From positions 7,931-71,930 of the forward strand of contig JAZDJN010000027.1 in NCBI GenBank assembly GCA_043803945.1: 64,000 nucleotides of DNA. Reading direction: 5' to 3'. The translations under genes were made by a program, and so were the position numbers. This document shows, one piece after another, positions 21,508-40,137 of the stretch (position 1 is its first letter; every line of letters starts with the position of its first letter). The notes beneath the pieces were generated by a model, which was given only the letters and a program-made list of their open reading frames with translations, was not told the origin of the DNA and did no database searches. The stretch is from a bacterium. GTDB lineage: Bacteria > Bacteroidota > Ignavibacteria > UBA10030.

Positions 21508-21532
21508 ATACCTCACCGCATGGGACTGTCGT

Positions 21533-22699: not shown

Positions 22700-22730
22700 G
22701 TGATTCCAGAATTTATCCAGGAGAGAAAGC

Positions 22731-25700: not shown

Positions 25701-26726
25701 CTTCTTTTGTCGATGTTCGAAAGGATTGCCCAACAGAAGGCTGGCTTCGAGATTATGGTCACAGCCATGGAAAGTCTCGGGTCTCCGGAATTGCGGGAAT
25801 ACATTGGCGTGGATATGAAGAGTATTCTAGAACTCCAGAAAAAATTTCAATTTACTTTACAGATAGAAGATCCAGAGCTTCGCTGGTCATCTAATCCGCA
25901 GCGCTATATTGAAATTGGGAATCGGTACAGGGGGCTTCTTGGCGGAGATTCCAAACTGGCACTGGACCTCAATATTCTCACCTTCAGGAAGGGAAATGTT
26001 GTCACACCGTTTCCCACATTGATTCAAACCGGTACGGAATGTTTTCAGTTGATTCGGGCTGCTGCTTTGGGTGCCCCACGATTCACGATCTATTCCGAGT
26101 CCAGTGTGAATCCTCAGGACATGACGTTCCTCCCATTTGCTGCCTCGCCGCACGTACAATATCGGTATATCCAAAATGGGTTTGAATTTTATTCCCCCTA
26201 TTCTTTTACCTTACAGCTTCCACCGGCAATCACCATCATTACCGTCGATGGAGCATTACTCGTACCACATCGCGAAAATCTGTTTACCATTCCGGCGGGA
26301 ACACATTCGGTTCGTCTGTCACGTGAGTCCATTGGTTCGTTTTCCGCAAGCGACCTCCAGGCAAAAATTCTTTCCTGCAGCGGGAATCTTACTTCTGTGC
26401 TGTACGGGATGCACGATATGAAGTTTACCTATGAATCAACGACCCGGACATTGATTTCGGTGAATCGCAAACCAACAGCCATCAAAGTCGACCAGCAGGA
26501 GTATCACCCCACCGTAATGAAGGGGAATGATTGCTTCACAATTTTCCTGCCGCCAGGGAACCATGAGGTTGAGTTAAGAGCGGGCGATGCTATTTCGTAC
26601 GGCATCAATCTGACATCCATCTGGTCGTCGACCGGCATTGCGATCTTTGGCACTCTCGCGGTAGCGATGCTTTTCGTTATGTACCTTCTTTTAAAAACCC
26701 TTCGAAAAAAGTATTCATCCGTCTGA
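22731..26726 (+). CDS. Giant (1331-aa) membrane-anchored multidomain protein with a deacetylase-like (DUF2334-like) region and a GH-like TIM-barrel (GHL10-like) region
   Basis: It has an N-terminal signal/anchor and a C-terminal TM helix ('IAIFGTLAVAMLFVMYLLL'). The region 'IRIEDISPMDDPERLRDIADLFASHNVPFLVGVIPFY...LVMHGSTHQY' resembles predicted polysaccharide deacetylases. The region 'IHAAGWHQYPHF...MLVYAWLEP...DWDGVNLAELYFE' resembles glycosyl-hydrolase-like TIM barrels. Confidence 0.55.
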   Translation: MINHCTEMFHGKAAVISTACRCLVLIVILLWCSATTSYSLPQSKTKNIIILVEGDTNLKSIPMAGGRQLATLFGHFDVKSTIKGVNQYTAGEMNGYDLVYYLGDKFKNTPPTNFLNDILTTRKDIVWLNTGFAEFSKTHDVQKTFGFSVSAIDSSSGYEIVKSGTKVFTKGDKPTAVIQIADRELVKVLATTYSPSRKKEIPYIVKSKNLTYIGDSPFSYASETDRYLLFADMLHDILGEQHEESHSAIIRIEDISPMDDPERLRDIADLFASHNVPFLVGVIPFYVNPSTGTRLGLSDKPELVDALKYVVHNGGALVMHGSTHQYKGVTASDFEFWNQMTNKPIADESESTFSKKIESGIQEFMKNGLYPIVWETPHYTGSFLLYKTIAKYFSSAMEPRLAIEDIDQSQFFPYIIAKDLFGQKLYPENLGYVPFDEDPRIGEEAVQTILRGAKANLAVRDGFAACFFHSFNELDLLEELVDGILALGYKFYDLRDQNNWVKTSDRIILTGSQDYTLKLNGQYLSEAYYDVDGQIKQELYSENRIDGTITKSISLAPGELYRAEPVEYRERKLTMTEKLANSLDRAYQHIFTSTDVWKEARVAILWNHYARGSAYNDQASFASTFQSINIKVDTIFLGQQINLQPYNLVVVPYVFIDSLSESDYTTLADYVKRGGNMITDTKSSLTDHFGIKFSETKIRIRRIRDRFFPEEAIAWRYAELVNKIEIDDPDEILCSDEVTQMPMVIGKHVGKGKIIFFNSRFDPYSQQGYSLYPYLLEYVRKFFNLSPIVRRDNLEVYFDTGFRINFSTENLIKQWVTQGIRIIHAAGWHQYPHFTFDYRRLIDLAHANGMLVYAWLEPPQVSQKFWLEHPEWREKNYKNLDVQPSWRYPVAMTDPKCLEALAQEFNTLLEQYDWDGVNLAELYFEAGKGLQEPNLFTPMHPSAKSEIFRKYGIDMNTVFDSTSASYWKHHPSVENSITTYRVNKLREVYELLLSMFERIAQQKAGFEIMVTAMESLGSPELREYIGVDMKSILELQKKFQFTLQIEDPELRWSSNPQRYIEIGNRYRGLLGGDSKLALDLNILTFRKGNVVTPFPTLIQTGTECFQLIRAAALGAPRFTIYSESSVNPQDMTFLPFAASPHVQYRYIQNGFEFYSPYSFTLQLPPAITIITVDGALLVPHRENLFTIPAGTHSVRLSRESIGSFSASDLQAKILSCSGNLTSVLYGMHDMKFTYESTTRTLISVNRKPTAIKVDQQEYHPTVMKGNDCFTIFLPPGNHEVELRAGDAISYGINLTSIWSSTGIAIFGTLAVAMLFVMYLLLKTLRKKYSSV

Positions 26727-26745
26727 CCAGGGAGCCCATCACACC

Positions 26746-28005
26746 ATGTCTGTTTTAGAAATCGATCTCAGTTTTCTCTTCCTCATCGCAGTCATCCTGA
26801 TCTGGTTTATGATCGGCTATCAGTTCGTACTGACGCTCTTTGGGTATATCAATTTTATCCGATCCTTAAGGGAGAAGAACGAGATCGATCAGATGTCGTT
26901 TCAATTCCCTCTTTGTACGATCCTCATTCCGGCACATAATGAAGAAAAGGTCATTGCCAAAACGATCGAGTCGATGTTGAAGCTGAAGTATCCGAAGGAA
27001 CAACTCCAGATTGTCGTTATTAACGACGGCTCGACAGATGCAACGAAGGAGATTAGTGCGAGATGTGCCAGAGAAGACTCACGGGTGGAATTGTACGATA
27101 TTCCCCTCGGTGAAGGCGGTAAAGGAAAATCGAGAACATTGAATCTGGGGCTCAGTGCTGCCCGCGGTGACATTATTGCCATCTACGATGCTGACAACAC
27201 GCCACATGAAGATTCACTCCGCTATCTCGTGTCGCAATTGCTTCTGCATAAGGAGCTTGGCGCTGTGCTCGGGAAATTCCGGACGGTGAATAAAAACAGG
27301 AATTGGCTGACGAAGTTCATTAATATCGAAACCTTAAGTTTTCAGTCCATGCTTCAGGCAGGGAGATGGCAAATGCATAACATTGCCACGCTTCCCGGAA
27401 CGAACTACGTGGTGTGGAGCTGGCTGATCAGAAAATTAGAAGGTTGGGATGAAGAGGCGCTGACGGAAGATTCTGAGCTGAGTATCCGGATGTACGAAGA
27501 GGGATATAAAATTAAATTCATCCCGTATGCTATTACCTATGAACAGGAACCCGAAGAGTGGAAGGTGTGGATTAAGCAGAGGGTTCGATGGGTACGCGGC
27601 AATAATTATGTGCTCTTAAAATTCCTCAAACATATTCCAAAGTTCAAGAATCGACGGCTGGCGTTCGACATCCTCTACACCCTTGCTCTGTACTATATCT
27701 TTTTTGCAGCTATTGTAGTCTCCGACCTTCTGTTCCTGATTGGATTGTTCAACCTAGTCAGTATCTCTCTTCCCGGTCCGTACACGTTTGTCTGGCTTAT
27801 TGCTTTTATCCTCTTCATCCTGGAAATCATTCTAGCAATCTCATTTGACGAAGAGGATAGTTTCAAGCAAATCTGGTTTATTGTGCTCATGTATTTCTCG
27901 TACTGCCAGTTGTGGATTTATATCGTGGTGAAGGCTGTCTATGCGGAGTGGATTAAAAAAGAAAAACGGACTTGGACAAAAACGATCCGGTTTGATACAG
28001 AATGA
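26746..28005 (+). CDS. Processive family-2 glycosyltransferase (PgaC/IcaA/NodC/cellulose-synthase-like polysaccharide synthase)
   Basis: N-terminal TM, then 'ILIPAHNEEKVIAKTIESMLKLKYP...IVVINDGSTD', 'IYDADNT' (DXD) and 'QRVRWVRG' (Q-x-x-R-W), followed by 3-4 C-terminal TM helices. Confidence 0.8.
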   Translation: MSVLEIDLSFLFLIAVILIWFMIGYQFVLTLFGYINFIRSLREKNEIDQMSFQFPLCTILIPAHNEEKVIAKTIESMLKLKYPKEQLQIVVINDGSTDATKEISARCAREDSRVELYDIPLGEGGKGKSRTLNLGLSAARGDIIAIYDADNTPHEDSLRYLVSQLLLHKELGAVLGKFRTVNKNRNWLTKFINIETLSFQSMLQAGRWQMHNIATLPGTNYVVWSWLIRKLEGWDEEALTEDSELSIRMYEEGYKIKFIPYAITYEQEPEEWKVWIKQRVRWVRGNNYVLLKFLKHIPKFKNRRLAFDILYTLALYYIFFAAIVVSDLLFLIGLFNLVSISLPGPYTFVWLIAFILFILEIILAISFDEEDSFKQIWFIVLMYFSYCQLWIYIVVKAVYAEWIKKEKRTWTKTIRFDTE

Positions 28006-28060
28006 ACCCGAAACCGGACGACTCCAAGAGATATCGCAAACTCGCTGACTAACAAAGACT

Positions 28061-29497
28061 ATGAAGAGATCTCCTCAACGAATACCATTCATCCTGTTTT
28101 GTCTTCTCGTGTGTGTTCTTTCCCTGCACTCTCAGAAAGTTCGGAACGATAGTCAAACGAAGAGCAACAACGCAGCAAGTACACTGAGAAGTCAGTATGA
28201 AACCCGGCTCTCTCAGATATTCCTCACCAACGTCACCCGTCAGAAGCACTACGTCGATTCGCTTTCACGAGAGATTATCAAGCTTCGTGATATACTGCAG
28301 AGAGGTGTCAGTAAAGTCCATGACACGCTCATTGTTGCTGCAGCTCGTCTGTTCAATGCTTTGAGGAGAGATTCATTGCAGCGAACCTCTTTCCTGTTGA
28401 CACAACCTTTTCAATCGTTGACAGATCGCTGGAACACTCTCTCAGGTAATTTACTCAATCGTGAAACAACGTTTCTTAAGGCACAGCAATCCTTATTCGG
28501 TCGATCGTCGATTTCAGATCAGGATGAATCTGTTGAAAGGATAGAGGAGTATTCATCGATTGCGGATAGTGTTTCTGAGATGGTTCTTGATTCGAGTTCC
28601 TGCTTTTTCGATACAATCATAGACAATCTCACCGAAGCTGCCGATGCTGCACGCGACTCGTTGGAGTCCGTCTATTGGCTTCTGGAGGAGGATCAACAGA
28701 AGGAGAATGATCTTCTTGCAGAGCGCCAGGAAGCGATTGCAGACAGTCTTGCCGAGGTGAAGGAACATGCTTCGAGACTTGTTGTTTCGATGTACTATAA
28801 TCACCATGCAACGTATCGCGGCCGCGATAATGGGATTAGCTATAATTCATTTGTTCCAACCCTCACGTATACTCATCGATCGGGATTTTCTCTTGGGCTG
28901 ATGGGAATCATTTTCCCCAATCACCCTGAGCGTCGTTATGAAGGTACCGGAGTAAGTCTGGGTTACTCGGGAGAAATTGCTGCTGTGGTGAGTTCCAGCA
29001 TTACCTATACGCATTTTTGGTTTGGCAAGAACAGTGCGGAACCGCGCTCCTATATGAACGATAACCTCTGGGCTGATTTGGATATAAACCTCGGCAGCTT
29101 TTCCATGAATCTTGCATCAACGTATGATATAGGATCAAAATCCGAATTCAATGGTATCCTTACTTCGATGGTTCTTCTTGATCTTGGTAAACCATTCGGA
29201 GCAGACAGGTTCGTCGGCGGCCCGGTGCTTTCGGCGCTCTACGGGCAACAGGATGCAACCTTAACGAGTGTTCGATTAACCATCTTGAAAAAGAGAACGA
29301 TCTCCACAACCGTCACCGAAGAGAAAAAAGTGTTTGGAGTTCTCTGCTATGAGCCGATGTTGATCCTCAGTTATCAGAAGGGGGGATTCAATCTGAAACC
29401 GTCGCTGGTATATGAAATTCCATTAAATGTTGTCGATAATAGCACCTCTCATCCCTTTCTCAATGTGACCTTGGAGATGAGTTATACCATCCGTTAA
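28061..29497 (+). CDS. Secreted protein with a helical N-terminal half and a beta-strand-rich C-terminal half; putative outer-membrane export barrel of the polysaccharide system
   Basis: Signal peptide (FCLLVCVLSLHSQ). Residues ~30-230 are Leu/Glu/Arg/Gln-rich helical sequence. Residues ~240-478 show an alternating hydrophobic pattern ('FSLGLMGIIF', 'GVSLGYSGEIAAVVSS', 'LTSMVLLDLG', 'KPSLVYEIPL', ...). Confidence 0.4.
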   Translation: MKRSPQRIPFILFCLLVCVLSLHSQKVRNDSQTKSNNAASTLRSQYETRLSQIFLTNVTRQKHYVDSLSREIIKLRDILQRGVSKVHDTLIVAAARLFNALRRDSLQRTSFLLTQPFQSLTDRWNTLSGNLLNRETTFLKAQQSLFGRSSISDQDESVERIEEYSSIADSVSEMVLDSSSCFFDTIIDNLTEAADAARDSLESVYWLLEEDQQKENDLLAERQEAIADSLAEVKEHASRLVVSMYYNHHATYRGRDNGISYNSFVPTLTYTHRSGFSLGLMGIIFPNHPERRYEGTGVSLGYSGEIAAVVSSSITYTHFWFGKNSAEPRSYMNDNLWADLDINLGSFSMNLASTYDIGSKSEFNGILTSMVLLDLGKPFGADRFVGGPVLSALYGQQDATLTSVRLTILKKRTISTTVTEEKKVFGVLCYEPMLILSYQKGGFNLKPSLVYEIPLNVVDNSTSHPFLNVTLEMSYTIR

Positions 29498-30763: not shown

Positions 30764-31996
30764 GTGAGTGTCATGATTCTATGGCATCGACGAGCTCTTA
30801 CAAAAAGCACGCAATTGGCAAACAATGTACTGCGTCCATTTCAGGAGTTCTTTCGAATTGAATCGAGTGCCGGGATTCTTCTGTTCATATGCACGGCAGT
30901 CGCATTGTTTTGGGCCAACTCACCGTGGAGTACAACCTACAGTTCCTTCTGGCAGTACAGCCCTGCGGTTGATCTCGGCAGATTCAAGTTCTCGAAATCC
31001 CTTGAACACCTTGTGAATGATGGCTTGATGGCCATCTTTTTTCTCGTTGTCGGATTAGAGATCAAACGGGAATTGTTAGTTGGAGAAATCTCTTCCTTGA
31101 AGAAAGCAGCACTGCCCGTGATTGCCGCGATTGGCGGGATGTTAGTACCAGCCTCGCTATTTCTCTCGTTCAATTCCGGCACTGAAGGTTCGCACGGATG
31201 GGGTATCCCCATGGCAACCGATATTGCCTTTGCCATCGGTGTTCTCTCGCTGCTCGGAAACAGAATACCTCTTGGATTGAAAGTCTTTCTGACAGCCCTG
31301 GCGATCATCGACGACCTAGGTGCCGTTCTGGTAATTGCCTTTTTCTACACCAGCGAGATTAATGGCTCGGCGCTTATTGTAGCAGGAATGATCTTCCTTT
31401 TGCTTCTCCTTCTCAATTACAGAGGAATCCGATTGATTTCGATCTATGTGGTACTTGGATTCTTCCTTTGGATTGCACTCTTAAAATCAGGCGTGCATGC
31501 GACGATTGCGGGGGTCCTGCTAGCCGCAACGATTCCGGCCCAGTTCAACCGGTCATTGGATCAGGAGGGAGAGGGGACCTCGCCGCTCCAAAAACTGGAA
31601 CACACGCTTCATCCATGGGTAAGCTATTTCATCATGCCGGTCTTTGCTCTTGCCAATGCCGGGATTGTGGTGAGTGCCGGCTTCTTATCGGCCCTGACAC
31701 ATTCTATTTCAGCGGGAATCATTCTTGGACTGGTCATCGGCAAGCAGGTGGGGATAACACTCTTCGCATGGTTGGCGGTGCGCTTGAAGCTTGCCTCGCT
31801 GCCGGCACATACCCGGTGGATTCAACTCTATGGAGTTGGCTGGCTGGGCGGTATCGGTTTTACAATGTCGTTGTTCATCGCCACTCTGGCATATGGTGAG
31901 TCAGAGATACTGGCAAATGCAAAATTGGCGATACTAATGGGTTCGGTCATTGCTGGATTTGGAGGATGGGCGCTGCTGCGCTCTGTACGATCATAA
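30764..31996 (+). CDS. nhaA: Na+/H+ antiporter NhaA
   Basis: 'FFRIESSAGILLFICTAVALFWANSPW', 'MAIFFLVVGLEIKRELLVGE' and 'GIPMATDIAFAIGVLSLLG' are canonical NhaA motifs. Confidence 0.85.
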   Translation: MSVMILWHRRALTKSTQLANNVLRPFQEFFRIESSAGILLFICTAVALFWANSPWSTTYSSFWQYSPAVDLGRFKFSKSLEHLVNDGLMAIFFLVVGLEIKRELLVGEISSLKKAALPVIAAIGGMLVPASLFLSFNSGTEGSHGWGIPMATDIAFAIGVLSLLGNRIPLGLKVFLTALAIIDDLGAVLVIAFFYTSEINGSALIVAGMIFLLLLLLNYRGIRLISIYVVLGFFLWIALLKSGVHATIAGVLLAATIPAQFNRSLDQEGEGTSPLQKLEHTLHPWVSYFIMPVFALANAGIVVSAGFLSALTHSISAGIILGLVIGKQVGITLFAWLAVRLKLASLPAHTRWIQLYGVGWLGGIGFTMSLFIATLAYGESEILANAKLAILMGSVIAGFGGWALLRSVRS

Positions 31997-32362: not shown

Positions 32363-33034
32363 ATGCCTAGTCAAATAGAAGCAACCATCAATTCCCTAAA
32401 ATCTCTTTGGGAACAACTCCTCCAATTCTTACCTCAATTGCTTATCAGTCTTGGCATTATGGCAGTCGGATGGTTCATTGCATTATTGATACGGAAGGGA
32501 GTTATTGTCCTCCTTAAACTCCTCCGAGTCGATAAAATGGCAGAAAAAGCTGGGCTCGAAGGTATTCTCTTAAAAGGTGGTGCTCAGTATTCGACAGTGA
32601 ATATCCTGGCAAATCTTTTCTATTGGTTCCTGATGTTGGGGCTAACACTCTCCGTCCTTCATAGCCTCGGATTAGACACGGCAAAGGAAGTGTTCAATCG
32701 GATTATTCTCTACATCCCGAATGTCATTGCAGCTCTCTTTATACTTGTTTTTGGAATGTTTCTGGCAAAACTCTTACGGGGAGCACTGCTCACATACCTT
32801 ACGAATGTCAGAATTTCAGGTGCAGACTTTGTGAGCACGGTAACGTATTGGGCGATCGTTTTTCTTGTCTTATCAAGCATGCTTCAACAACTGTCGCTCG
32901 GTGGACAATTGTTGATCTCGGCGTTCGAAATAGCCTTCGCAGGATTGTGTCTCGCACTCGCCATAGCCTTTGGCCTGGCAGGAAAAGAGTGGGCTACTCA
33001 AATTCTGGAGAAACTCTGGAGAAGCAGTCGTTGA
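32363..33034 (+). CDS. Membrane protein with tandem conserved-TM-helix repeats (MscS-associated 'TM_helix'-like)
   Basis: 223 aa with two similar repeats, 'L..LL..L.I.A...FIALLIRK' and 'IPNVIAALFILVFGMFLAKLLR'. Confidence 0.4.
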   Translation: MPSQIEATINSLKSLWEQLLQFLPQLLISLGIMAVGWFIALLIRKGVIVLLKLLRVDKMAEKAGLEGILLKGGAQYSTVNILANLFYWFLMLGLTLSVLHSLGLDTAKEVFNRIILYIPNVIAALFILVFGMFLAKLLRGALLTYLTNVRISGADFVSTVTYWAIVFLVLSSMLQQLSLGGQLLISAFEIAFAGLCLALAIAFGLAGKEWATQILEKLWRSSR

Positions 33035-33089: not shown

Positions 33090-35357
33090 ATGAAGATTAC
33101 CGTTCGTCTTATTATATCGCTTTTCATAGCGGCCGCCTTTGTTGCTGCTGTGTTTTCCTACCTTCAGGTTCAGAATGAACGAGATCTCCTTGTTCAAGAC
33201 CTAACGAGCCGGGCGCGTGTCCTTGGTGAAAGTATGGAGGAAACCATCAAGGAATACATTCAAGCGAATGCAATGGCAAAACTTAAAAGCACGATATATC
33301 GATTCGGCAGAAGGACAAAACTCCTTGGAATTGCAGTTTATGATAATCAAGGGGCGGGTATTGCTTTCAGTCCAGCGCTGGATTCTACATTCTCGACAAC
33401 TCCCCCGGAAGTCTGGGAATCAATCACAAGCCTAAAAGCTGTCAGTGGAATGAAGGAGGTGAGCGGTAATACTGTCCATTTATATGTTCATCCCCTGATG
33501 GCTGACTCGTCGATTGTTGGAGCGTTACTGTTCTACCATGATGTTTCCTTTATTGATGCAAAGCTCCAGGGGATCTGGCAGACAAACTTTATTCGTCTGC
33601 TTACGCATTTTTTCCTAATTATCGTGACGACCATTCTTGTCGTACGATGGAGTATCAAAGGCCCCATTGCACAAATTGCCCATTGGATGCGCGGTTTACG
33701 AACGGGAAAATCTTATCAAACAATCCCAATTCCACGGGGTGATCTTCTTGAACCGTTAGCCAATGAAGTCTCACTGCTTGCAAAAAGCCTCACACAAGCA
33801 CGAACCGCTGCTCAGGAAGAGGCACGTCTGCGTATAGAAGCCGAGTCACTTTGGACCTCAGAACGGCTAAAGGAACATGTCAAAATTGAGTTAAACGGGA
33901 AAAATCTTTTCGTTATCTCCAACCGCGAGCCCTATATGCATATGATAATGGGAGGAACGATTCAGTGTATCGTTCCGGCGGGCGGATTAGTCACTGCCCT
34001 TGATCCGATTCTGCGTGCGTGCGGGGGTATATGGATTGCCCATGGGAGTGGCACTGCTGACAGAGAGACTGTTGATATGCAGGATCGCGTTCAGGTTCCA
34101 CCAGAGGATCCGACATATTCATTGCGACGAGTCTTTCTCACCAAAGAGGAGGAAGAGGGATACTATTACGGGTTCTCCAACGAAGGGATATGGCCGCTCT
34201 GTCATATTACACACACTCGTCCCACATTTAAATTACAAGATTGGGTTCATTATCAAAATGTCAATGAGCAATTTGCAAAAGCGTTGTTAGAAGAAATCCG
34301 AAATGAAGAATCTCCCCTGATTTTGATTCAGGATTATCATTTTGCTCTCCTTCCATTATTGATTAAATCCAAACGCCCGGATGCGAGGGTGGCGATCTTC
34401 TGGCATATTCCCTGGCCCAATCCCGAAGTGTTCGGCATTTGTCCCTGGAAACAGGAATTGCTGCTTGGTTTACTCGGCGCGGATCTTATCGGGTTTCATA
34501 TCCAATTTCACTGCAACAATTTCCTTGAGACAGTGGATCGTTACTTAGAATCAAAAATCAACTGGGATCAATTTTCCGTTGAGCGGCATGGACAACTCAC
34601 CTCTGTGCGTCCATTTCCTATCAGTGTCGCTCATCCGTATGAGTCTGAAATCAGCACTCAACGGCCAGTCTCTATCGCTACCAAAGAGTCCTTACTCAAA
34701 AAATCTGGAGTTGTTGCTCCCTTCATGGCGTTGGGCGTCGATCGGATAGACTATACAAAGGGAATCGTTGAACGATTCCAGGCAGTGCGGCGATTCCTGG
34801 AAAAATATCCAGAATATGTTGGGAAGTTTACATTCGTTGAACTCGGAGCACCGAGCCGTACGCATATCAAACGCTACCACGACCTGATCGCTGAATTGGA
34901 TGAAACAGTCGATCGCATTAATTGGTCGTTTCAAGCTAAAAATTGGAAACCGATCGTTTTTCTCAAAGCCCACCATGATCACAAAACCATCGGCGATTAT
35001 TATCGGGTTGCCGATGTGTGCATGGTCACTTCTCTTCATGACGGGATGAATCTCGTTGCCAAAGAATTTATTGCAACACGCACCGATGACGATGGTGTTC
35101 TCATTCTCAGTCAATTTGCAGGGGCGGCACGGGAGCTACCCGATGCACTCATCGTTAATCCGTACGATATTGAAGAAATGGCTGAAGCGCTTCATCTGGC
35201 ATTGACGATGGAGAAAAAAGAACAACGTGAACGAATGCAAGAGATGCGAACGGTGGTGAAAGAAAGAAATGTTTACCGGTGGGCAGCGAACATTATAACA
35301 ACCCTCACGCACTTGCGGATGCCCAAGCAACCTGCAGCGATGGAGTCACAACAGTGA
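33090..35357 (+). CDS. otsA: Trehalose-6-phosphate synthase (GT20, OtsA) fused to an N-terminal two-TM periplasmic sensor plus HAMP-like module
   Basis: The C-terminal ~480 aa carry GT20 motifs: 'LILIQDYHFALLPLLIK', 'IFWHIPWPNPEVFGICPW', 'LLGADLIGFHIQFH', 'GVDRIDYTKGI' and 'ILSQFAGAARELPDALIVNPYDIEEMAEAL'. The N-terminal ~270 aa comprise TM1 (res 7-25), a ~140-aa extracytoplasmic region, TM2 ('FIRLLTHFFLIIVTTILVV') and a HAMP-like helix-connector-helix ('GPIAQIAHWMRGL...PRGDLLEPLANEVSLLAKSL'). Confidence 0.8.
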   Translation: MKITVRLIISLFIAAAFVAAVFSYLQVQNERDLLVQDLTSRARVLGESMEETIKEYIQANAMAKLKSTIYRFGRRTKLLGIAVYDNQGAGIAFSPALDSTFSTTPPEVWESITSLKAVSGMKEVSGNTVHLYVHPLMADSSIVGALLFYHDVSFIDAKLQGIWQTNFIRLLTHFFLIIVTTILVVRWSIKGPIAQIAHWMRGLRTGKSYQTIPIPRGDLLEPLANEVSLLAKSLTQARTAAQEEARLRIEAESLWTSERLKEHVKIELNGKNLFVISNREPYMHMIMGGTIQCIVPAGGLVTALDPILRACGGIWIAHGSGTADRETVDMQDRVQVPPEDPTYSLRRVFLTKEEEEGYYYGFSNEGIWPLCHITHTRPTFKLQDWVHYQNVNEQFAKALLEEIRNEESPLILIQDYHFALLPLLIKSKRPDARVAIFWHIPWPNPEVFGICPWKQELLLGLLGADLIGFHIQFHCNNFLETVDRYLESKINWDQFSVERHGQLTSVRPFPISVAHPYESEISTQRPVSIATKESLLKKSGVVAPFMALGVDRIDYTKGIVERFQAVRRFLEKYPEYVGKFTFVELGAPSRTHIKRYHDLIAELDETVDRINWSFQAKNWKPIVFLKAHHDHKTIGDYYRVADVCMVTSLHDGMNLVAKEFIATRTDDDGVLILSQFAGAARELPDALIVNPYDIEEMAEALHLALTMEKKEQRERMQEMRTVVKERNVYRWAANIITTLTHLRMPKQPAAMESQQ

Positions 35358-36193
35358 AGAATCCGGTCTATCTATTTTCAGGACGACGAGAATCATGGGA
35401 CGCGATCGCCCGGAAATTACGCGCTGCTTCCGGCATAGCTCTATTTCTTGATTACGATGGAACATTGACCCCGATCCGGCGGACGCCATCAGCGGCAGTT
35501 CTTACACCGGACGTAAAGAACATTTTACAGCAGTTGGCACAACTTCCGGATGTGTGCGTCGCTATCGTCACCGGCAGGTCAATGAGGGATATCCAGAAAC
35601 TCGTTCGTGTAGATACCCTCGGATTTGCCGCAAATCATGGTTTCCATATGGATATCAATGGAATTGACTGGATTCATCCTCAAGCTGTATCTCAGAAGAA
35701 AGTACTGTCACGACTTCACTCGATTCTTTGCAACGCACTTGCAGCATTTCCTGAACTCTATATTGAGAACAAACAATTCACATTAAGTATTCATTATAGG
35801 AATGTTGCTGCACATCATGTCCGTTCCCTCAAAGCACTGGTTTCGAAAACCGTACACTCATTTAATCCGACACTACAAATAACTCGCGGAAAGAAAATAT
35901 TGGAAGTAAGACCTCAAATACCATGGGGAAAGGGAGATGCTGTTTTAGCAATGTTAAATTTGAGTAAGACTTCTCAACGCCGGATCCCGCTGTTTATCGG
36001 CGATGATACAACAGATGAGGATGTCTTTCGAGCCTTGCGTTCGAAAGGGATAACGATACGGGTGGGAAGGGCGCGATCTACAAATGCGCAATACTATGTG
36101 AAGAGCGTCAAGGAAGTTCACGATATACTTCGATTGATCATCTCTCTCAGAGAGAATCGTTCTATCCGCACTCGTTCACGTCAGAAGAAATAA
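35354..36193 (+). CDS. otsB: Trehalose-6-phosphate phosphatase (HAD superfamily)
   Basis: HAD motif I is 'LFLDYDGTLTP' and motif IV is 'FIGDDTTDEDVF'. The probable GTG start overlaps the otsA stop in a GTGA overlap, suggesting translational coupling. The ORF is open from 35279. Confidence 0.8.
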   Translation: MKNPVYLFSGRRESWDAIARKLRAASGIALFLDYDGTLTPIRRTPSAAVLTPDVKNILQQLAQLPDVCVAIVTGRSMRDIQKLVRVDTLGFAANHGFHMDINGIDWIHPQAVSQKKVLSRLHSILCNALAAFPELYIENKQFTLSIHYRNVAAHHVRSLKALVSKTVHSFNPTLQITRGKKILEVRPQIPWGKGDAVLAMLNLSKTSQRRIPLFIGDDTTDEDVFRALRSKGITIRVGRARSTNAQYYVKSVKEVHDILRLIISLRENRSIRTRSRQKK

Positions 36194-36208: not shown

Positions 36209-37417
36209 ATGCATGCATTAGAAGAATACCGGGACATTGTCGGTGATGATGTTATCGCAGAAATCTATCGTTTAGCTCGTCCGCTATATGGTAAGAAAAT
36301 CCTTCATATCAATTCCACCTACTATGGAGGCGGTGTTGCAGAGATCCTCTATTCACTTGTGCCACTTCTGAATGCCGCCGGTCTTGATGCCGACTGGAGA
36401 ATGTTGCGAGGTACTCCGGAATTTTTCAACGTCACAAAGAAATTCCACAACGCTATTCAGGGTGAATCGATCCGAATGACCGACATCAAGGCAGCGCTCT
36501 ATTCCGAGAATAATCAGGACTTTGCATCGTATTGCAAGATCGATGCCGATTGTGTGATCATTCATGATCCTCAACCATTACCACTGATCCGTTTTTATAA
36601 GAAACGCCAACCCTGGCTCTGGAGGTGTCACGTTGATCTCTCGCATCCAAACCAAGATCTCTGGCACTTTCTCAAAGGGTATATCCTTGCCTATGATGGT
36701 ATCATTGTCTCCGATGAACAGTATGTTCAAAAAGATCTTCCGATGAACTATACTATCATCGATCCTGCTATTGATCCACTCTCCTCGAAGAATAGAGTTA
36801 TCCCGGAGGACCTAATAGAACGGACGCTTCAGAAGTATGATGTCCCCACTGATAAACCATTTATTACTCAAATATCAAGATTTGACAAGTGGAAAGATCC
36901 TGAAAATGTTATTGAAGTATATAAACTTGTGCGGAAGGAATGCGATTGTCGGTTAATACTGTGTGGAAGCATGGCAACGGATGATCCGGAAGGCTGGGAA
37001 TATTTCGAGCGAACGAGGAAGGCAGCAGGATCGTACCTTGATAATAAGGATATCATATTGATTACAGTAGAGGACAATATTTTGGTCAATGCACTCCAGA
37101 GTAAGTCGACCATCATTCTTCAAAAATCGATACGGGAAGGATTCGGGCTCACGGTCACTGAAGCGCTCTGGAAGGGCAAGCCAGTAGTTGCATCGAATGT
37201 TGGCGGTATTCCCCGGCAGTTGATTGATAATAAAACGGGATTTCTCGTGGAGCCGCTAGATATCCAGGGTTGTGCCGATATCGTGAGTACGATTCTAAAG
37301 AATCCAAAGTTGGGTCAGGCACTTGGTGTGAATGGTAAAGAACACGTTCGAAAAAACTTTCTCATCACCCGGCATGTGATTGATGATCTAAAGCTGCTCA
37401 ATAAAATATTGAGTTGA
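36209..37417 (+). CDS. treT: Trehalose glycosyltransferring synthase (TreT-type, GT4; NDP-glucose + glucose -> trehalose)
   Basis: 'HINSTYYGGGVAEILYSLVPLL', 'FFNVTKKFHNAIQG', 'PWLWRCHVDLSHPN' and 'IREGFGLTVTEALWKGKPVVASNVGGIPRQ' closely match the motif set I recall for archaeal and Thermotoga TreT. Confidence 0.6.
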   Translation: MHALEEYRDIVGDDVIAEIYRLARPLYGKKILHINSTYYGGGVAEILYSLVPLLNAAGLDADWRMLRGTPEFFNVTKKFHNAIQGESIRMTDIKAALYSENNQDFASYCKIDADCVIIHDPQPLPLIRFYKKRQPWLWRCHVDLSHPNQDLWHFLKGYILAYDGIIVSDEQYVQKDLPMNYTIIDPAIDPLSSKNRVIPEDLIERTLQKYDVPTDKPFITQISRFDKWKDPENVIEVYKLVRKECDCRLILCGSMATDDPEGWEYFERTRKAAGSYLDNKDIILITVEDNILVNALQSKSTIILQKSIREGFGLTVTEALWKGKPVVASNVGGIPRQLIDNKTGFLVEPLDIQGCADIVSTILKNPKLGQALGVNGKEHVRKNFLITRHVIDDLKLLNKILS

Positions 37418-37435: not shown

Positions 37436-37966
37436 ATGAATTATTTTGAACGTTTTTACAAACACAAGAAATTTTTTGATTTCCTGGACGAGCTAAAGAT
37501 AAAGCAGCGGCACTGGATTATCTTATCGATTCTCGTTGCAAGCGCCGATTTCCTGAGTGGCAACAAGATCCAATTTTCTATCCTCTACCTCTTGCCCATT
37601 GCTTTGGCTGCCTGGTTTGGTGAACGTCGTGAAGCATTGATTCTTGCTTTGCTACTTCCCTGTTCTCGATTGATCTTCCGAGCACAATGGGATATGCCAT
37701 GGTTCGTTCTCGATTCAATGATAAATCTTCTCATTCGCATTCTTGTCTTTATCATTATTGCATATTTAATTTCTTTCATAAAAGAGCTACACGTGTTGAG
37801 GGGATTATTGCACATCTGTTCGTATTGCAATCGGATCAAAAATGAAGATGGAACCTGGATCTCCGTGCAGGAGTATATCGTTGATCATTCAGAAGCTCTC
37901 TTGAGTCATGGCATATGTCTTGAGTGTGGTTCAAAACATTTCAGTCGACTGTTTCCGAACAAATGA
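37436..37966 (+). CDS. Membrane protein (4 TM) with a C-terminal CxxC...CxxC zinc-ribbon-like tail
   Basis: 176 aa. The C-terminus is 'CSYCNRIKNEDGTW...CLECGSKHF'. Confidence 0.4.
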   Translation: MNYFERFYKHKKFFDFLDELKIKQRHWIILSILVASADFLSGNKIQFSILYLLPIALAAWFGERREALILALLLPCSRLIFRAQWDMPWFVLDSMINLLIRILVFIIIAYLISFIKELHVLRGLLHICSYCNRIKNEDGTWISVQEYIVDHSEALLSHGICLECGSKHFSRLFPNK

Positions 37967-38142: not shown

Positions 38143-40137
38143 TTGATGCCAGTGGGATCAAAACGATTTCAACTCCCAAAATTATTAATGCGCCTCACTG
38201 CGCCTCCCAGAAACGCGGTAGAGAAGTGGTTTTATCATGGAGGAAAAGTTGATGCAAAATCCCGAAAGAGCGAAACGCATCCTTGGTACAGAGTACTCTG
38301 GCTCACCGGTGTTGATTATTTTTCTACGTTAGGATACCAACCGGGAATTGCCCTCCTTGCTGCAGGAGCTCTTTCTCCTTTGGCAACGGCTCTTTTAGTA
38401 ATTGTCACCTTGTTTGGTGCGTTGCCAGCCTATCTGCAGGTAGCACAACGTTCGTATGCCGGTCAGGGATCCATCGCGATGCTGGAGAATCTGCTTCATG
38501 GATGGAAGGGTAAAATCTTCGTTCTGATTCTCCTGGGATTTGCCAGTACAGATTTCGTTATTACGATCACACTCTCTTCTGCTGATGCAGTCCAGCATCT
38601 CCTCGAGAATCCACTTATCGGTCCCTTCTTTGGCGATGCACGCCTGACATTAACAAATATCATGCTGGCAATCCTTGCCGGTGTATTCTTAATGGGCTTT
38701 ACTGAGGCAATCAGAATTGCTGTTTTTGTTACAATACCATACCTGGCATTAAATGCCATTGTCATACTCCGGTGCATCGTTGAGATCATCCAGCGACCGG
38801 AACTATTCACCAATTGGTCAGCAATGCTCTCGCTTCACGGTGATCCAATCATGATCGTTCTGGTCTGTGCCTTGATTTTTCCGAAGCTCGCTTTGGGACT
38901 TAGCGGTTTTGAAACCGGTGTCGCAGTTATGCCGCTCGTATCCTCAGGAGGGGGTGTCTCCCGGGGTCAGATACCATTCGTCAGAATCGCTGCAACAAAA
39001 AAGCTACTTACCACGGCCGCTCTGATCATGAGCGTATTTCTTATCTCTTCAAGTTTTGTAACGACCCTGCTTATTTCGGAAAAAGAATTCGCCCTCGGAG
39101 GAATAGCAAGTGGAAGGGCATTGGCATTTCTGAGTCATACCTATCTTGGACATACTTTTGGAACGTTGTACGATATTTCCACGATCGCGATTCTCTGGTT
39201 TGCGGGTGCCTCAGCAATGGCGGGCTTACTCAACGTGATTCCCCGATATCTGCCGCGGTTTGGTATGGCGCCGCGATGGGTAGCCTACACCCGGCCCCTG
39301 GTTATTGTGATCTTTATTGTAAGCCTTATCGTGACAAAAATCTTCAATGCGAGTGTCGAAGCTCAAGGTGGAGCATATGCCACTGGAGTTCTTGTTCTGA
39401 TGCTTTCTGCAGCGGTCGCCGTTGCTCTCGAGCTGAAGCGTGAAGCGATGGATAAAGCAGAGTATCTTCTGGGAAGAATTAAAAAAGTTCTCTTAAGCGG
39501 ATATTTTTGGGTTATTACGTTGATTTTCACATTCACACTTATTGATAATATTTTCGTTCGCCCGGATGGAGTGATCATTGCAAGCCTGTTTATTATTTCG
39601 ATTATTGCACTGGGTGCATTGAGCCGCTACATCCGACAGACAGAATTACGCGTGGAAAGTATGTCGCTTGTGGATGAGGAGTCACTAGCCTTGTGGCAAA
39701 AAATTAAAGGGAAGAAGGTTAATCTTGCACCGTTAAAAGATGAGAATCAGGACTCTATAGTCAAAAAGCAGAGTGAAATTAGCAGACATTACAAAGTTCA
39801 GGGTCCGATAGCATTCGTTCATGTCCATCTTCTCGATAACCGCAGCGAATTTCTGACTCCGTTGCAATTGAAAATTCGTAGGCGAGGAAAACATTACATG
39901 ATTAATATCTTTGGCGCTGTAGCTGTCGCGAATAGTCTCGCCTATCTGAGCGAACAGATGGATCCAAAAACCATCTTCATTGGTCTCACAGGGCAGAACC
40001 TCATGACTCAATCACTAAACTATTTTATTTGGGGAGAAGGCGAGGTGGGACTTTCGGTGTACACCATTCTTGTTCGATATTGGGAATGGATCGGTGAAGA
40101 AAATGAACGGCCGCTAATTTTCTTAATGAGTGAATGA
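38143..40137 (+). CDS. APC-superfamily-like polytopic permease with a ~180-aa cytoplasmic C-terminal domain
   Basis: 664 aa with ~12 hydrophobic helices in the first ~480 aa, and a soluble C-terminal region. Confidence 0.45.
   Translation: MMPVGSKRFQLPKLLMRLTAPPRNAVEKWFYHGGKVDAKSRKSETHPWYRVLWLTGVDYFSTLGYQPGIALLAAGALSPLATALLVIVTLFGALPAYLQVAQRSYAGQGSIAMLENLLHGWKGKIFVLILLGFASTDFVITITLSSADAVQHLLENPLIGPFFGDARLTLTNIMLAILAGVFLMGFTEAIRIAVFVTIPYLALNAIVILRCIVEIIQRPELFTNWSAMLSLHGDPIMIVLVCALIFPKLALGLSGFETGVAVMPLVSSGGGVSRGQIPFVRIAATKKLLTTAALIMSVFLISSSFVTTLLISEKEFALGGIASGRALAFLSHTYLGHTFGTLYDISTIAILWFAGASAMAGLLNVIPRYLPRFGMAPRWVAYTRPLVIVIFIVSLIVTKIFNASVEAQGGAYATGVLVLMLSAAVAVALELKREAMDKAEYLLGRIKKVLLSGYFWVITLIFTFTLIDNIFVRPDGVIIASLFIISIIALGALSRYIRQTELRVESMSLVDEESLALWQKIKGKKVNLAPLKDENQDSIVKKQSEISRHYKVQGPIAFVHVHLLDNRSEFLTPLQLKIRRRGKHYMINIFGAVAVANSLAYLSEQMDPKTIFIGLTGQNLMTQSLNYFIWGEGEVGLSVYTILVRYWEWIGEENERPLIFLMSE

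What the first reader, a model, noticed from the sequence alone, without database searches (positions are those of the whole stretch)
33090..35357. Trehalose-6-phosphate synthase fused to a transmembrane periplasmic sensor and HAMP-like domain
OtsA enzymes are normally soluble and ~450-480 aa. Here the GT20 catalytic domain is preceded by ~270 aa consisting of TM1, a ~140-aa extracytoplasmic domain, TM2 and a HAMP-like linker ('GPIAQIAHWMRGL...PRGDLLEPLANEVSLLAKSL'). This is the architecture of a one-component membrane sensor. It suggests trehalose synthesis is gated directly by a periplasmic or osmotic signal rather than, or as well as, by transcription. otsB follows with a 4-nt GTGA overlap.
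Basis: partly seen in the sequence, partly recalled or inferred. Interest (0 to 1): 0.65.

Follow-up and report, generated by a model that had tools for sequence, protein, structure and literature searches.

The report
Membrane sensor fused to trehalose-phosphate synthase
A trehalose-6-phosphate synthase is built onto the receptor front end that bacteria normally attach to signalling kinases, so an outside signal may switch stress-sugar synthesis on directly; the fusion occurs in hundreds of uncultured species but no paper found here describes it.

Summary
ORF 33090-35357 (+) encodes a 755-aa protein with two hydrophobic helices, about 5-27 and 167-189. Between them lies a ~140-aa domain. A ~50-aa helix-connector-helix, a conserved helix and a complete GT20 domain (273-739) follow.

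The fusion is not a frameshift artefact. It is one reading frame in 78 of 80 related loci, and at least 537 species genomes encode the N-terminal module. These span Ignavibacteriota/Bacteroidota, Nitrospirota, Acidobacteriota, Elusimicrobia, Deltaproteobacteria, NC10 and Zixibacteria.

All twelve E. coli OtsA active-site residues checked are conserved. otsB follows with the GTGA overlap, and treT comes next.

The best reading is a membrane receptor whose output is an enzyme, controlling trehalose-6-phosphate synthesis after translation. The signal and the direction of control are inferred. An osmotic or ionic cue is suggested only by the neighbouring genes.

Five literature searches found no description. 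I rate it a new variant of a known kind.

The parts
33090..35357 (+). Whole gene: the sensor-OtsA fusion, 755 aa (NCBI MFH0989515.1, annotated only as 'MAG: trehalose-6-phosphate synthase')
   Evidence: ORF. The identical database protein is P0001. It is one ORF in 78/80 related loci.
33102..33170 (+). TM1 (about aa 5-27), a signal-anchor helix with a cytoplasmic N-terminus (K2, R6)
   Evidence: Hydropathy windows score up to 2.5. The AF2 model runs it as one continuous helix, 2-58, into the outer domain.
33171..33587 (+). Extracytoplasmic single Cache/PDC-like sensor domain (about aa 28-166)
   Evidence: - AF2 pLDDT is about 85-92, with a long N-terminal helix, a five-stranded sheet and a C-terminal helix.
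- A PDB profile search gives marginal hits to the WalK, GSU0935 and LapD-like sensor domains.
- 33/148 relatives hit sCache_3_2 and 10 hit Cache_WalK.
33588..33656 (+). TM2 (about aa 167-189), followed by the conserved 'VRWS' motif and a cluster of positive charges
   Evidence: Hydropathy. R186 and W187 are invariant.
33657..33797 (+). Divergent HAMP domain (about aa 190-236): AS1 192-205, connector 206-219, AS2 from 220
   Evidence: - AF2 predicts helix-loop-helix.
- The relative P0272 scores 26.5 bits on PF00672 (cutoff 25) at 188-236, which aligns to window 188-235.
- 25/148 relatives match HAMP at E<=1.
- hhalign against 7 HAMP sequences gives P=8e-4.
- P192 and E226 are invariant.
- The window's own sequence gives no Pfam HAMP hit.
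33798..33905 (+). Conserved signalling-helix-like linker (aa 237-272), 'ARTAAQEEARLRIEAESLWTSERLKEHVKIELNG', running straight into the first strand of the GT20 domain
   Evidence: Residues 237-252 form the most conserved N-terminal segment (mean top-residue frequency 0.65). Invariant residues are A237, R238, A241, E244, L247, R248 and W255. AF2 predicts helices 221-251 and 257-268.
33906..35306 (+). GT20 catalytic domain (aa 273-739), a trehalose-6-phosphate synthase
   Evidence: - PF00982 E=3.6e-118. TIGR02400 E=2.3e-129 but below the equivalog cutoff.
- PDB OtsA/Tps1 hits reach E=5e-77.
- R279, G298, G299, Y359, W368, D415, H439, R552, K557, R590, D651 and E659 correspond to the E. coli OtsA active-site residues. 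Eleven are invariant and G298 is at least 90% conserved in the family.
35354..36193 (+). otsB (trehalose-6-phosphate phosphatase), with its start overlapping the otsA stop (GTGA)
   Evidence: PF02358 E=3e-51. TIGR00685 scores 165.6 bits against a cutoff of 68. Sequence shown. It lies immediately downstream in 63/80 loci.
36209..37417 (+). treT-like trehalose glycosyltransferring synthase (GT4), 15 nt after otsB
   Evidence: PF21269 TreT_GT1 E=4.8e-56. NF041139 E=2.8e-126 but below cutoff. It lies within about 4 kb of sensor-otsA in 44/80 loci.
32363..33034 (+). A 223-aa membrane protein with two MscS-type 'conserved TM helix' repeats, 55 nt upstream (context; possibly in the same operon)
   Evidence: PF05552 E=7.4e-17 and NF033912 E=2.4e-18. 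It is found in 9 of the 80 loci, directly upstream in 6 of them, all among the closest Ignavibacteria-type loci.
30764..31996 (+). nhaA Na+/H+ antiporter (context only)
   Evidence: PF06965 E=3.7e-153. It is near sensor-otsA in 8/80 loci.

Best explanation
The gene encodes a membrane-integral receptor whose output is a metabolic enzyme.

**Anatomy (shown by computation)**
- The N-terminus is cytoplasmic and TM1 crosses the membrane.
- A single Cache/PDC-type domain sits outside the cytoplasmic membrane.
- TM2 returns to the cytoplasm and leads into a divergent HAMP domain.
- A strongly conserved helix follows and feeds directly into strand 1 of an intact OtsA (GT20) catalytic domain. That strand carries Arg279, the counterpart of the E. 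coli residue that binds the phosphate of glucose-6-phosphate.

**Mechanism (inferred)**
- By analogy with every characterised TM-Cache-TM-HAMP receptor, the protein should be a homodimer.
- A stimulus at the outer domain or in the membrane would move TM2.
- The HAMP four-helix bundle would convert this movement into a change in helix packing.
- The conserved helix would pass the change on to the paired catalytic domains. This would alter acceptor-site geometry, GT-B domain closure or dimer contacts.
- The rate of UDP-glucose + glucose-6-P -> trehalose-6-P would therefore be set after translation.
- OtsB is translationally coupled through the GTGA overlap and completes trehalose synthesis.

**Signal (weakest step)**
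The flanking nhaA, the MscS-type membrane protein, treT and a protein-repair methyltransferase suggest salt, osmotic or desiccation stress. Within the outer domain, the usual Cache ligand-pocket region is the most variable part and the membrane-proximal parts are conserved. This argues for a physical or envelope cue, or for lineage-specific ligands, rather than one universal small ligand.
For: **Architecture**
- ORF and GT20 domain.
- Two hydrophobic helices with positive-inside charge bias.
- AF2 models with mean pLDDT 81 and 83.
- HAMP at the aligned position in relatives. P0272 scores 26.5 bits against a cutoff of 25 at 188-236, and 25/148 relatives match.
- NCBIfam shows weak matches of the N-terminal 240 residues to the WalK, NarQ, CreC, DgcN, SiaA and chemoreceptor input modules.

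**More than an anchor**
- TM2, HAMP and the following helix are about as conserved as the enzyme: 67-68% against 76% mean identity among close homologues.
- Helix 237-252 is the most conserved N-terminal segment in 148 diverse relatives.
- Some relatives carry a tandem duplication of the outer domain, as modular sensors do.

**Active enzyme**
- All 12 E. coli OtsA active-site residues checked are identical. Eleven are invariant and one is at least 90% conserved in the family.
- otsB is immediately downstream in 63/80 loci.

**Selection on the fusion**
- One ORF in 78/80 loci, and at least 537 species genomes across at least 7 phylum-level groups.
- Every sufficiently long top hit of the N-terminal profile continues into GT20.
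Against: - No experiment or computation here shows that activity depends on a signal.
- The window's own sequence gives no significant Pfam hit to HAMP or Cache.
- A profile of the linker finds no HAMP-containing PDB chain. hhalign probability against HAMP sequences is only 25%.
- HAMP is not known to drive a GT-B glycosyltransferase, so the coupling mechanism has no precedent.
- Only monomer models could be built, so the dimeric four-helix bundle is untested. The HAMP connector and the following helix have low confidence (pLDDT 48-73).
- The osmotic cue rests on gene neighbourhood. nhaA and the MscS-like gene are conserved only in the closest 8-9 loci.
Confidence: 0.6

Rival explanations
1. 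Membrane tether or scaffold only. The N-terminal module would localise and dimerise OtsA at the inner face of the membrane. This could place trehalose where lipids need protection, or assemble OtsA with OtsB, TreT or a channel. No signal would be transmitted.
For: - The canonical Cache ligand-pocket region (94-117) is the least conserved part of the outer domain.
- No ligand can be named.
- Membrane proteins are encoded on both sides of the operon.
Against: - A tether does not need a 140-aa folded outer domain plus a HAMP.
- The HAMP and the helix after it are among the most conserved parts of the protein.
- The outer domain has been duplicated in some lineages.
- The whole input module resembles those of true receptors.
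Confidence: 0.2
2. The reverse logic. The GT20 domain would act as a cytoplasmic sugar-phosphate or nucleotide-sugar sensor, and the outer domain would be the output. LapD works this way, with a periplasmic Cache-like domain controlled from inside. The outer domain would then bind or release a periplasmic partner.
For: - Conservation is highest in the membrane-proximal parts.
Against: - The catalytic residues are fully intact.
- otsB is translationally coupled, which fits an enzyme rather than a sensor.
- No conserved periplasmic partner gene was seen across the loci.
- Matches to WalK, DctB and CitA are stronger than to LapD.
Confidence: 0.07
3. The catalytic domain makes a different sugar phosphate, for example glucosylglycerol-phosphate or another GT20 product, rather than trehalose-6-phosphate. 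The system would then control a different compatible solute.
For: The domain scores below the NCBIfam equivalog cutoffs for OtsA (432 against 565, and 498 against 634). It also matches GgpS at E=8.6e-88.
Against: - OtsA models score far better than GgpS (432-498 against 295 bits).
- All OtsA acceptor and donor residues are conserved.
- The adjacent phosphatase passes the trehalose-phosphatase equivalog cutoff (165.6 against 68 bits).
- treT is co-located in 44/80 loci.
Confidence: 0.08
4. Assembly or annotation artefact. A frameshift or mis-join would have fused an upstream sensor gene to otsA.
For: None was found.
Against: - The same one-ORF architecture appears in 78/80 independent loci and in more than 100 full-length database clusters at 60-81% identity from independent projects.
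- The junction sequence 'WT.ERLKE...LFV.SNREP' is conserved.
Confidence: 0.01

Closest known systems
WalK (YycG) and other sensor histidine kinases with a TM-Cache/PDC-TM-HAMP input module (also CitA, DcuS, DctB, NarQ)
   Same: - Same order of parts: TM1, single Cache/PDC outer domain, TM2, HAMP.
- Weak sequence matches to the WalK N-terminus, E=2.8e-6 for the window protein and down to 4.6e-11 in relatives.
   Different: There is no DHp or ATPase kinase domain and no cytoplasmic PAS. The output is a GT-B glycosyltransferase that makes a metabolite, not a phosphorelay. No response regulator is involved.
Canonical soluble OtsA (E. coli OtsA, mycobacterial OtsA, fungal Tps1)
   Same: GT20 fold and sequence, with E=5e-77 to 2e-69 to solved structures. 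The active-site residues checked are identical. otsB is the adjacent partner.
   Different: - This protein has about 270 extra N-terminal residues that make it an integral membrane protein with an outer domain.
- From general knowledge, control of the soluble enzymes is transcriptional (RpoS and osmotic induction), ionic (K+ stimulation) or allosteric. PMC6879718 reports 2-oxoglutarate and 2-phosphoglycerate as allosteric regulators of mycobacterial OtsA.
- It scores below the NCBIfam OtsA equivalog cutoffs.
HAMP-linked enzymes with direct catalytic output, such as the mycobacterial class III adenylyl cyclase Rv3645, HAMP-GGDEF cyclases and the HAMP-PP2C phosphatase SiaA (recalled from general knowledge)
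   Same: A membrane receptor whose HAMP and following helix drive a dimeric catalytic domain in the same polypeptide. The relative P0272 gives weak NCBIfam matches to the SiaA and HmsP input regions.
   Different: Those outputs make or remove signalling molecules or phosphoryl groups. Here the output is a step of bulk compatible-solute biosynthesis. No search here found GT20 listed as a HAMP or Cache output.
GgpS of Synechocystis, a salt-activated GT20-family glucosylglycerol-phosphate synthase (recalled from general knowledge)
   Same: A GT20-family compatible-solute synthase whose activity, not only its expression, responds to the osmotic or ionic state. It is a precedent for post-translational control in this enzyme family.
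   Different: GgpS is soluble and is thought to respond to cytoplasmic ionic strength. It has no transmembrane sensor, Cache domain or HAMP.
RipTPS of Ralstonia solanacearum (PMC4278537)
   Same: A bacterial trehalose-6-phosphate synthase with an added N-terminal domain.
   Different: Its extension is a type III secretion targeting signal for delivery into plant cells, not a transmembrane sensor.

Membership tests
GT20 / trehalose-6-phosphate synthase (OtsA) | Match to the Pfam Glyco_transf_20 model above the gathering score | tested here: met
   395.7 bits against a cutoff of 32.5, covering residues 273-739 and profile positions 3-471 of 473.
GT20 / trehalose-6-phosphate synthase (OtsA) | Reaches the NCBIfam equivalog cutoff for OtsA (TIGR02400, PRK14501, PRK10117) | tested here: not met
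   432.1 against 564.85, 498.5 against 634 and 284 against 759 bits. It is a distinct subfamily, and relatives behave the same way.
GT20 / trehalose-6-phosphate synthase (OtsA) | Conserved donor and acceptor binding and catalytic residues (E. coli R9, G21/G22, Y76, W85, D130, H154, R262, K267, R300, D361, E369) | tested here: met
   All are identical: R279, G298, G299, Y359, W368, D415, H439, R552, K557, R590, D651 and E659. The E. coli sequence and residue list came from memory. Eleven are invariant and G298 is at least 90% conserved in 40 family members.
GT20 / trehalose-6-phosphate synthase (OtsA) | Paired with a trehalose-6-phosphate phosphatase | tested here: met
   otsB overlaps the stop codon and passes the TIGR00685 cutoff at 165.6 against 68 bits. 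It is downstream in 63/80 loci.
GT20 / trehalose-6-phosphate synthase (OtsA) | Catalyses NDP-glucose + glucose-6-P -> trehalose-6-P | not testable with these tools
   Needs an enzyme assay.
HAMP domain (PF00672) | Match to the Pfam HAMP model | tested here: inconclusive
   - The window sequence gives no hit, even at E<=10.
- The full-length relative P0272 scores 26.5 bits (cutoff 25) at 188-236, which aligns to window 188-235.
- 25/148 relatives match at E<=1.
- hhalign against 7 HAMP sequences gives P=8e-4 and probability 25%.
- A linker profile finds no HAMP in PDB sequences.
HAMP domain (PF00672) | About 50 residues directly after the last TM helix: helix AS1 with a conserved Pro, a flexible connector, then helix AS2 | tested here: met
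   AF2 predicts helix 192-205, a loop 206-219 with low pLDDT, and a helix from 220. P192 is invariant. 'RGD.L.PL..E' aligns with the 'DEIGRL' AS2 motif of P0272.
HAMP domain (PF00672) | Forms a parallel homodimeric four-helix bundle | not testable with these tools
   Only monomer prediction was available.
Cache / PDC extracytoplasmic sensor domains (sCache) | Long N-terminal helix, central antiparallel sheet flanked by helices, and a C-terminal helix leading into TM2, all located between two TM helices | tested here: met
Cache / PDC extracytoplasmic sensor domains (sCache) | Match to a Pfam Cache model above the gathering score | tested here: not met
   The window sequence gives no Cache hit. 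Relatives give sub-threshold hits only: sCache_3_2 in 33/148 (best E=4.6e-6), Cache_WalK in 10 and dCache_1 in 17.
Cache / PDC extracytoplasmic sensor domains (sCache) | Binds a small-molecule ligand in the pocket | not testable with these tools
   The pocket region 94-117 is the most variable segment. No ligand can be inferred.
Two-component sensor histidine kinase (WalK-like) | DHp (HisKA) and HATPase_c catalytic domains | tested here: not met
   No HisKA or HATPase_c hit. GT20 occupies all residues after 272. The protein is not a histidine kinase and only shares the input module.
Single-polypeptide transmembrane receptor with an enzymatic output | Input (sensor) and output (effector) domains in one polypeptide, with the fusion under selection | tested here: met
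   One ORF in 78/80 loci, and at least 537 species genomes. The long hits checked from the N-terminal profile's top list all carry GT20.
Single-polypeptide transmembrane receptor with an enzymatic output | Output activity changes in response to the input signal | not testable with these tools
   Needs biochemistry or genetics.

The most novel reading that the evidence does not exclude
This would be a previously undescribed class of bacterial receptor in which a Cache-HAMP transmembrane module directly switches a primary metabolic GT-B glycosyltransferase. Cells could then start making a compatible solute within seconds of an envelope or osmotic stimulus, without transcription or a second messenger. 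It would also show that HAMP can control a non-signalling enzyme fold. The family is widespread in soil, sediment and groundwater phyla: Acidobacteriota, Nitrospirota, Ignavibacteriota, Elusimicrobia and NC10.
Probability: 0.45. Interest if true: 0.8.

Novelty: new variant of a known kind. Interest (0 to 1): 0.66.

Why it matters
**Osmoregulation.** How bacteria match compatible-solute synthesis to sudden osmotic or desiccation stress is usually explained by transcription and by ionic effects on soluble enzymes. A receptor hard-wired to OtsA would be a third and faster route. It would be directly testable, because input and output sit in one protein with a simple enzymatic read-out.

**Signal transduction.** It would extend HAMP and Cache outputs beyond kinases, chemoreceptors, cyclases and phosphatases to a GT-B metabolic enzyme. 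That raises the question of how helix rotation or piston movement is read by a Rossmann-type domain.

**Ecology.** The family is common in major uncultured soil, sediment and groundwater lineages, including Nitrospira-type nitrifiers and Acidobacteriota, where drought and salt tolerance matter.

**Annotation.** Hundreds of database entries are named only 'trehalose-6-phosphate synthase', and none of the source names seen here mentions the receptor half.

Tried and rejected
1. **Pfam on the N-terminal 270 aa alone at E<=10.** Only noise came back (SMP_2 at 0.06). There was no HAMP or Cache hit.
2. **Word-indexed homologue search with the N-terminal 270 aa.** It returned only 7 fragmentary proteins and no other output domains.
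3. **Exhaustive profile search.** It found 2332 clusters, but only the top 150 are listed, and all belong to this family or are fragments of it. I could not see whether the weaker tail contains kinases with the same sensor. The two longer hits with no Pfam GT20 match at E<=0.001 (P0136, P0187) are frameshifted copies that still start the GT20 sequence.
4. **Linker profile against PDB sequences.** No HAMP chain was found, only a coiled-coil filament protein at E=0.49.
5. **Home-made HAMP HMM.** It found one genuine HAMP kinase (L042). The sensor-OtsA proteins gave only non-significant AS2-region matches.
6. **hhalign.** It placed a 7-residue gap in AS2. The alignment with P0272 and Pfam supports the ungapped register instead.
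7. **Promoter and terminator scan of 29.5-41.5 kb.** Counts did not differ from shuffled sequence, so it was uninformative.
8. **afdb50 fold library.** It was unavailable, so I could not look for cultured-organism UniProt entries or other outputs by structure.
9. **Cluster member look-up.** It gave only metagenome-assembled genome (MAG) or metagenome sources and no cultured strain.
10. **Literature.** Five full-text searches and two paper look-ups found no description of the fusion. The library lacks most subscription-journal papers, so a prior description cannot be excluded.
11. **Frameshift or fusion artefact.** Rejected.
Full report

The window has a single ATG-initiated ORF at 33090-35357 (+) of 755 aa. 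Pfam places a complete GT20 domain at residues 273-739 (E=3.6e-118). NCBIfam's OtsA models match the same span (TIGR02400 E=2.3e-129, PRK14501 E=3e-149). All score below their equivalog cutoffs.

A Kyte-Doolittle scan finds two strongly hydrophobic 19-residue windows in the first 272 residues, about 5-27 and 167-189. The only other window above the 1.5 cutoff (286-304, score 1.55) lies in the GT20 domain. Lys/Arg lie before the first helix (K2, R6). Residues 196-215, just after the second helix, hold 3 K/R and 0 D/E. The predicted topology is therefore N-in, with residues 28-166 outside and the enzyme inside. An inside location is required, because UDP-glucose and glucose-6-P are cytoplasmic (established knowledge).

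The quoted linker string is present. The otsA stop TGA (35355-35357) overlaps a GTG at 35354 that is in frame with otsB, and a GGAG lies 8 nt upstream. An earlier in-frame GTG at 35279 is the only alternative start.

**2. Is the fusion genuine?**

The identical protein is in NCBI as MFH0989515.1, 'MAG: trehalose-6-phosphate synthase [bacterium]', on a 100-kb contig. More than a hundred 90%-identity clusters of 739-766 aa cover at least 96% of the query at 60-81% identity. They come from independent projects.

The 80 retrieved come from these groups:
- Ignavibacteriota/Bacteroidota
- Nitrospirota, including Nitrospira and Thermodesulfovibrionia
- Acidobacteriota (Terriglobales, Sulfotelmatobacter)
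- Elusimicrobia
- Deltaproteobacteria (Syntrophus, Syntrophorhabdus)
- NC10
- Zixibacteria

In 78 of the 80 loci the GT20 domain is in the same ORF as the N-terminal module. The other two loci gave no GT20 match, and both are short contigs. The N-terminus 'MKIT' and the junction 'WT.ERLKE....LFV.SNREP' are conserved.

An exhaustive profile search of 1.84 billion representatives found 2332 clusters at E<=1e-3 and 222 at E<=1e-30. Eight of the ten long hits scanned match Pfam GT20. The other two (P0136, P0187) are frameshifted copies that still begin the GT20 sequence. A frameshift or mis-assembly is excluded.

**3. What is the N-terminal module?**

*Structure prediction.* AlphaFold2 on a 23-sequence alignment gave mean pLDDT 81. 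A full-length run gave 83. The predicted elements are:
- helix 2-58, which is TM1 continuing outward
- helix 62-75
- strands 80-85, 90-93, 118-124, 127-138 and 141-151, with a helix at 106-114
- helix 153-190, which runs into TM2
- helix 192-205, a low-confidence loop at 206-219, helix 220-252 and helix 257-267

At sequence level the family profile gives marginal PDB hits to WalK, a Geobacter chemoreceptor sensor and a LapD-like domain (E=0.006-0.07). The window protein's first 246 residues match the NCBIfam WalK model at E=2.8e-6. Relatives reach 4.6e-11 and also touch the NarQ, CreC, AtoS, DgcN, SiaA and chemoreceptor input regions. Scanning 148 diverse relatives individually, 33 match sCache_3_2, 17 dCache_1, 11 dCache_3 and 10 Cache_WalK, all below the gathering scores. 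The outer domain therefore has a single Cache/PDC fold. It belongs to no curated Pfam Cache family at threshold.

*HAMP.* The window sequence gives no Pfam HAMP hit, and a linker profile finds no HAMP in PDB sequences. Among the 148 relatives, however, 25 match PF00672 at E<=1. The full-length relative P0272 (739 aa, about 45% identical) scores 26.5 bits, above the 25-bit gathering score, at residues 188-236 between TM2 and GT20. In the family alignment that segment corresponds to window residues 188-235. P0272's canonical 'DEIGRL' lies over the window's 'DLLEPL'.

Invariant P192 matches the conserved AS1 proline, and E226 is also invariant. hhalign against seven HAMP sequences gives P=8e-4 but only 25% probability. 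I conclude it is a divergent HAMP. The dimeric four-helix bundle could not be tested.

*Conservation pattern.* Among close homologues, mean identity to the window protein is as follows:

| Segment | Mean identity |
|---|---|
| TM1 | 0.71 |
| Outer domain | 0.44 |
| TM2 | 0.67 |
| Linker | 0.68 |
| GT20 | 0.76 |

Across the 148 diverse relatives, helix 237-252 is the most conserved N-terminal segment (top-residue frequency 0.65). The Cache pocket region 94-117 and the HAMP connector are the least conserved (0.30 each). A minority of relatives (913-931 aa) carry a tandem duplication of the outer domain.

**4. Is the enzyme intact?**

The GT20 domain matches solved OtsA/Tps1 structures at E=5e-77 to 2e-69. 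I aligned it to E. coli OtsA, typing that sequence and the residue list from memory of the published structure work. Every active-site residue checked is identical: R279, G298, G299, Y359, W368, D415, H439, R552, K557, R590, D651 and E659. Eleven of these are invariant and G298 is at least 90% conserved in 40 family members.

otsB passes the trehalose-phosphatase equivalog cutoff. It follows immediately in 63/80 loci. A TreT-type trehalose synthase lies within about 4 kb in 44/80 loci. The product is therefore most likely trehalose-6-phosphate.

**5. Context in the window**

Upstream are nhaA (30764-31996) and a 223-aa protein with two MscS-type TM-helix repeats (32363-33034), 55 nt before the gene. 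Downstream are otsB, treT, a 176-aa membrane protein with a Cys/His C-terminal motif, a 664-aa polytopic protein with no family, a protein-L-isoaspartate methyltransferase and an amino-acid permease.

The nhaA and MscS-like neighbours recur only in the closest 8-9 Ignavibacteria-type loci. The neighbourhood hints at salt, osmotic or desiccation stress, but it is not a family-wide signature.

**6. Mechanism**

*Shown.* The protein has a receptor-type input module (TM, Cache/PDC, TM, HAMP and a conserved helix). This is covalently joined to a catalytically intact OtsA, and the fusion is under long-term selection.

*Inferred.* The protein would be a homodimer. A stimulus at the outer domain or membrane would displace TM2, and the HAMP would convert this into a packing change. 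The 237-252 helix and the short 257-268 helix would transmit it to strand 1 of the N-terminal Rossmann domain (273-277). That strand is followed by R279, the counterpart of the residue that binds the glucose-6-P phosphate. Acceptor binding, domain closure or dimer geometry would then change, and with them the rate of trehalose-6-P synthesis.

The nature of the signal is the weakest step. The variable pocket and conserved membrane-proximal parts favour a physical or envelope cue, or lineage-specific ligands.

*Rivals.* The alternatives considered are:
- a passive tether or scaffold
- inside-out signalling of the LapD type
- a different GT20 product
- an artefact, which is excluded

**7. Comparison with what is known and novelty**

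The input half works like, and resembles, the input half of WalK-type kinases. The protein is not a kinase, because it has no HisKA or HATPase_c domain. The output half is an OtsA subfamily below the curated equivalog cutoffs.

From general knowledge, recognised HAMP and Cache outputs are kinases, chemoreceptor signalling domains, nucleotide cyclases or phosphodiesterases, and PP2C phosphatases. Control of OtsA-type enzymes is transcriptional, ionic or allosteric; PMC6879718 reports allosteric regulation of mycobacterial OtsA by 2-oxoglutarate and 2-phosphoglycerate. The one N-terminally extended bacterial TPS found in the searches is the secreted effector RipTPS (PMC4278537).

Five full-text searches combining trehalose-6-phosphate synthase, OtsA or Glyco_transf_20 with HAMP, Cache, sensor or transmembrane terms returned nothing describing this architecture. 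The library is incomplete. The proteins are already in databases under a generic name. I therefore rate it a new variant of a known kind rather than categorically new.

**8. Verdict**

| Claim | Assessment |
|---|---|
| Observation | confirmed |
| Architectural interpretation | supported |
| Architecture | confidence about 0.95 |
| Signal-dependent control of catalysis | confidence about 0.6 |
| Osmotic or ionic cue | confidence about 0.35 |
| Interest | 0.66 |

Noticed in passing
window 37436-37966 (+): A 176-aa protein lies 18 nt after treT, with no Pfam or NCBIfam hit. It has an N-terminal multi-TM region and a C-terminal Cys/His motif 'ICSYCNRIKNEDGTWISVQEYIVDHSEALLSHGICLECG', which looks like a zinc ribbon. 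Relatives lie near sensor-otsA in 3 of 80 loci (L004, L009, L067). Its function is unknown, and it could be a partner or regulator.
   Followed up: partly
window 32363-33034 (+): A 223-aa membrane protein consists of two MscS-type 'conserved TM helix' repeats (PF05552) and lacks the MscS beta and C-terminal domains. It lies 55 nt upstream of sensor-otsA. The gene is found in 9 of the 80 loci and sits in the same upstream position in 6 of them, all close Ignavibacteria-type loci. It may belong to the same operon.
   Followed up: partly
relatives P0071, P0080, P0082, P0093 (913-931 aa; not in the window): Some family members carry a tandem duplication of the extracytoplasmic Cache-like domain before TM2, HAMP and GT20. 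This gives a two-module outer sensor that appears to have arisen by internal duplication.
   Followed up: partly
window 38143-40137 (+): A 664-aa predicted polytopic membrane protein with a C-terminal soluble part of about 200 aa. It has no Pfam or NCBIfam match. It lies just downstream of the trehalose genes and was not found near sensor-otsA in the 80 related loci.
   Followed up: partly
window 20086-29497 (+): An exopolysaccharide-type cluster lies upstream. It holds a UDP-GlcNAc 2-epimerase (21476-22699), a 1331-aa DUF2334 protein with a GH42-like middle domain (22731-26726) and a GT2 synthase (26746-28005). Two flanking ORFs of 473 and 478 aa (20086-21507 and 28061-29497) have no family match.
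   Followed up: no
loci L012, L018, L021, L023, L026, L027 and others, downstream of otsB: In many related loci treT starts about 1.4-1.5 kb after the otsA stop, against 0.85 kb in the window. This implies a longer otsB or an extra gene of about 200 aa between otsB and treT in those lineages.
   Followed up: no
window 35279-35354 (+): The otsB start is ambiguous. The farthest in-frame start is GTG 35279, which would overlap otsA by 79 nt. GTG 35354 gives the 4-nt GTGA overlap and has a GGAG 8 nt upstream, so it is the more plausible start.
   Followed up: yes
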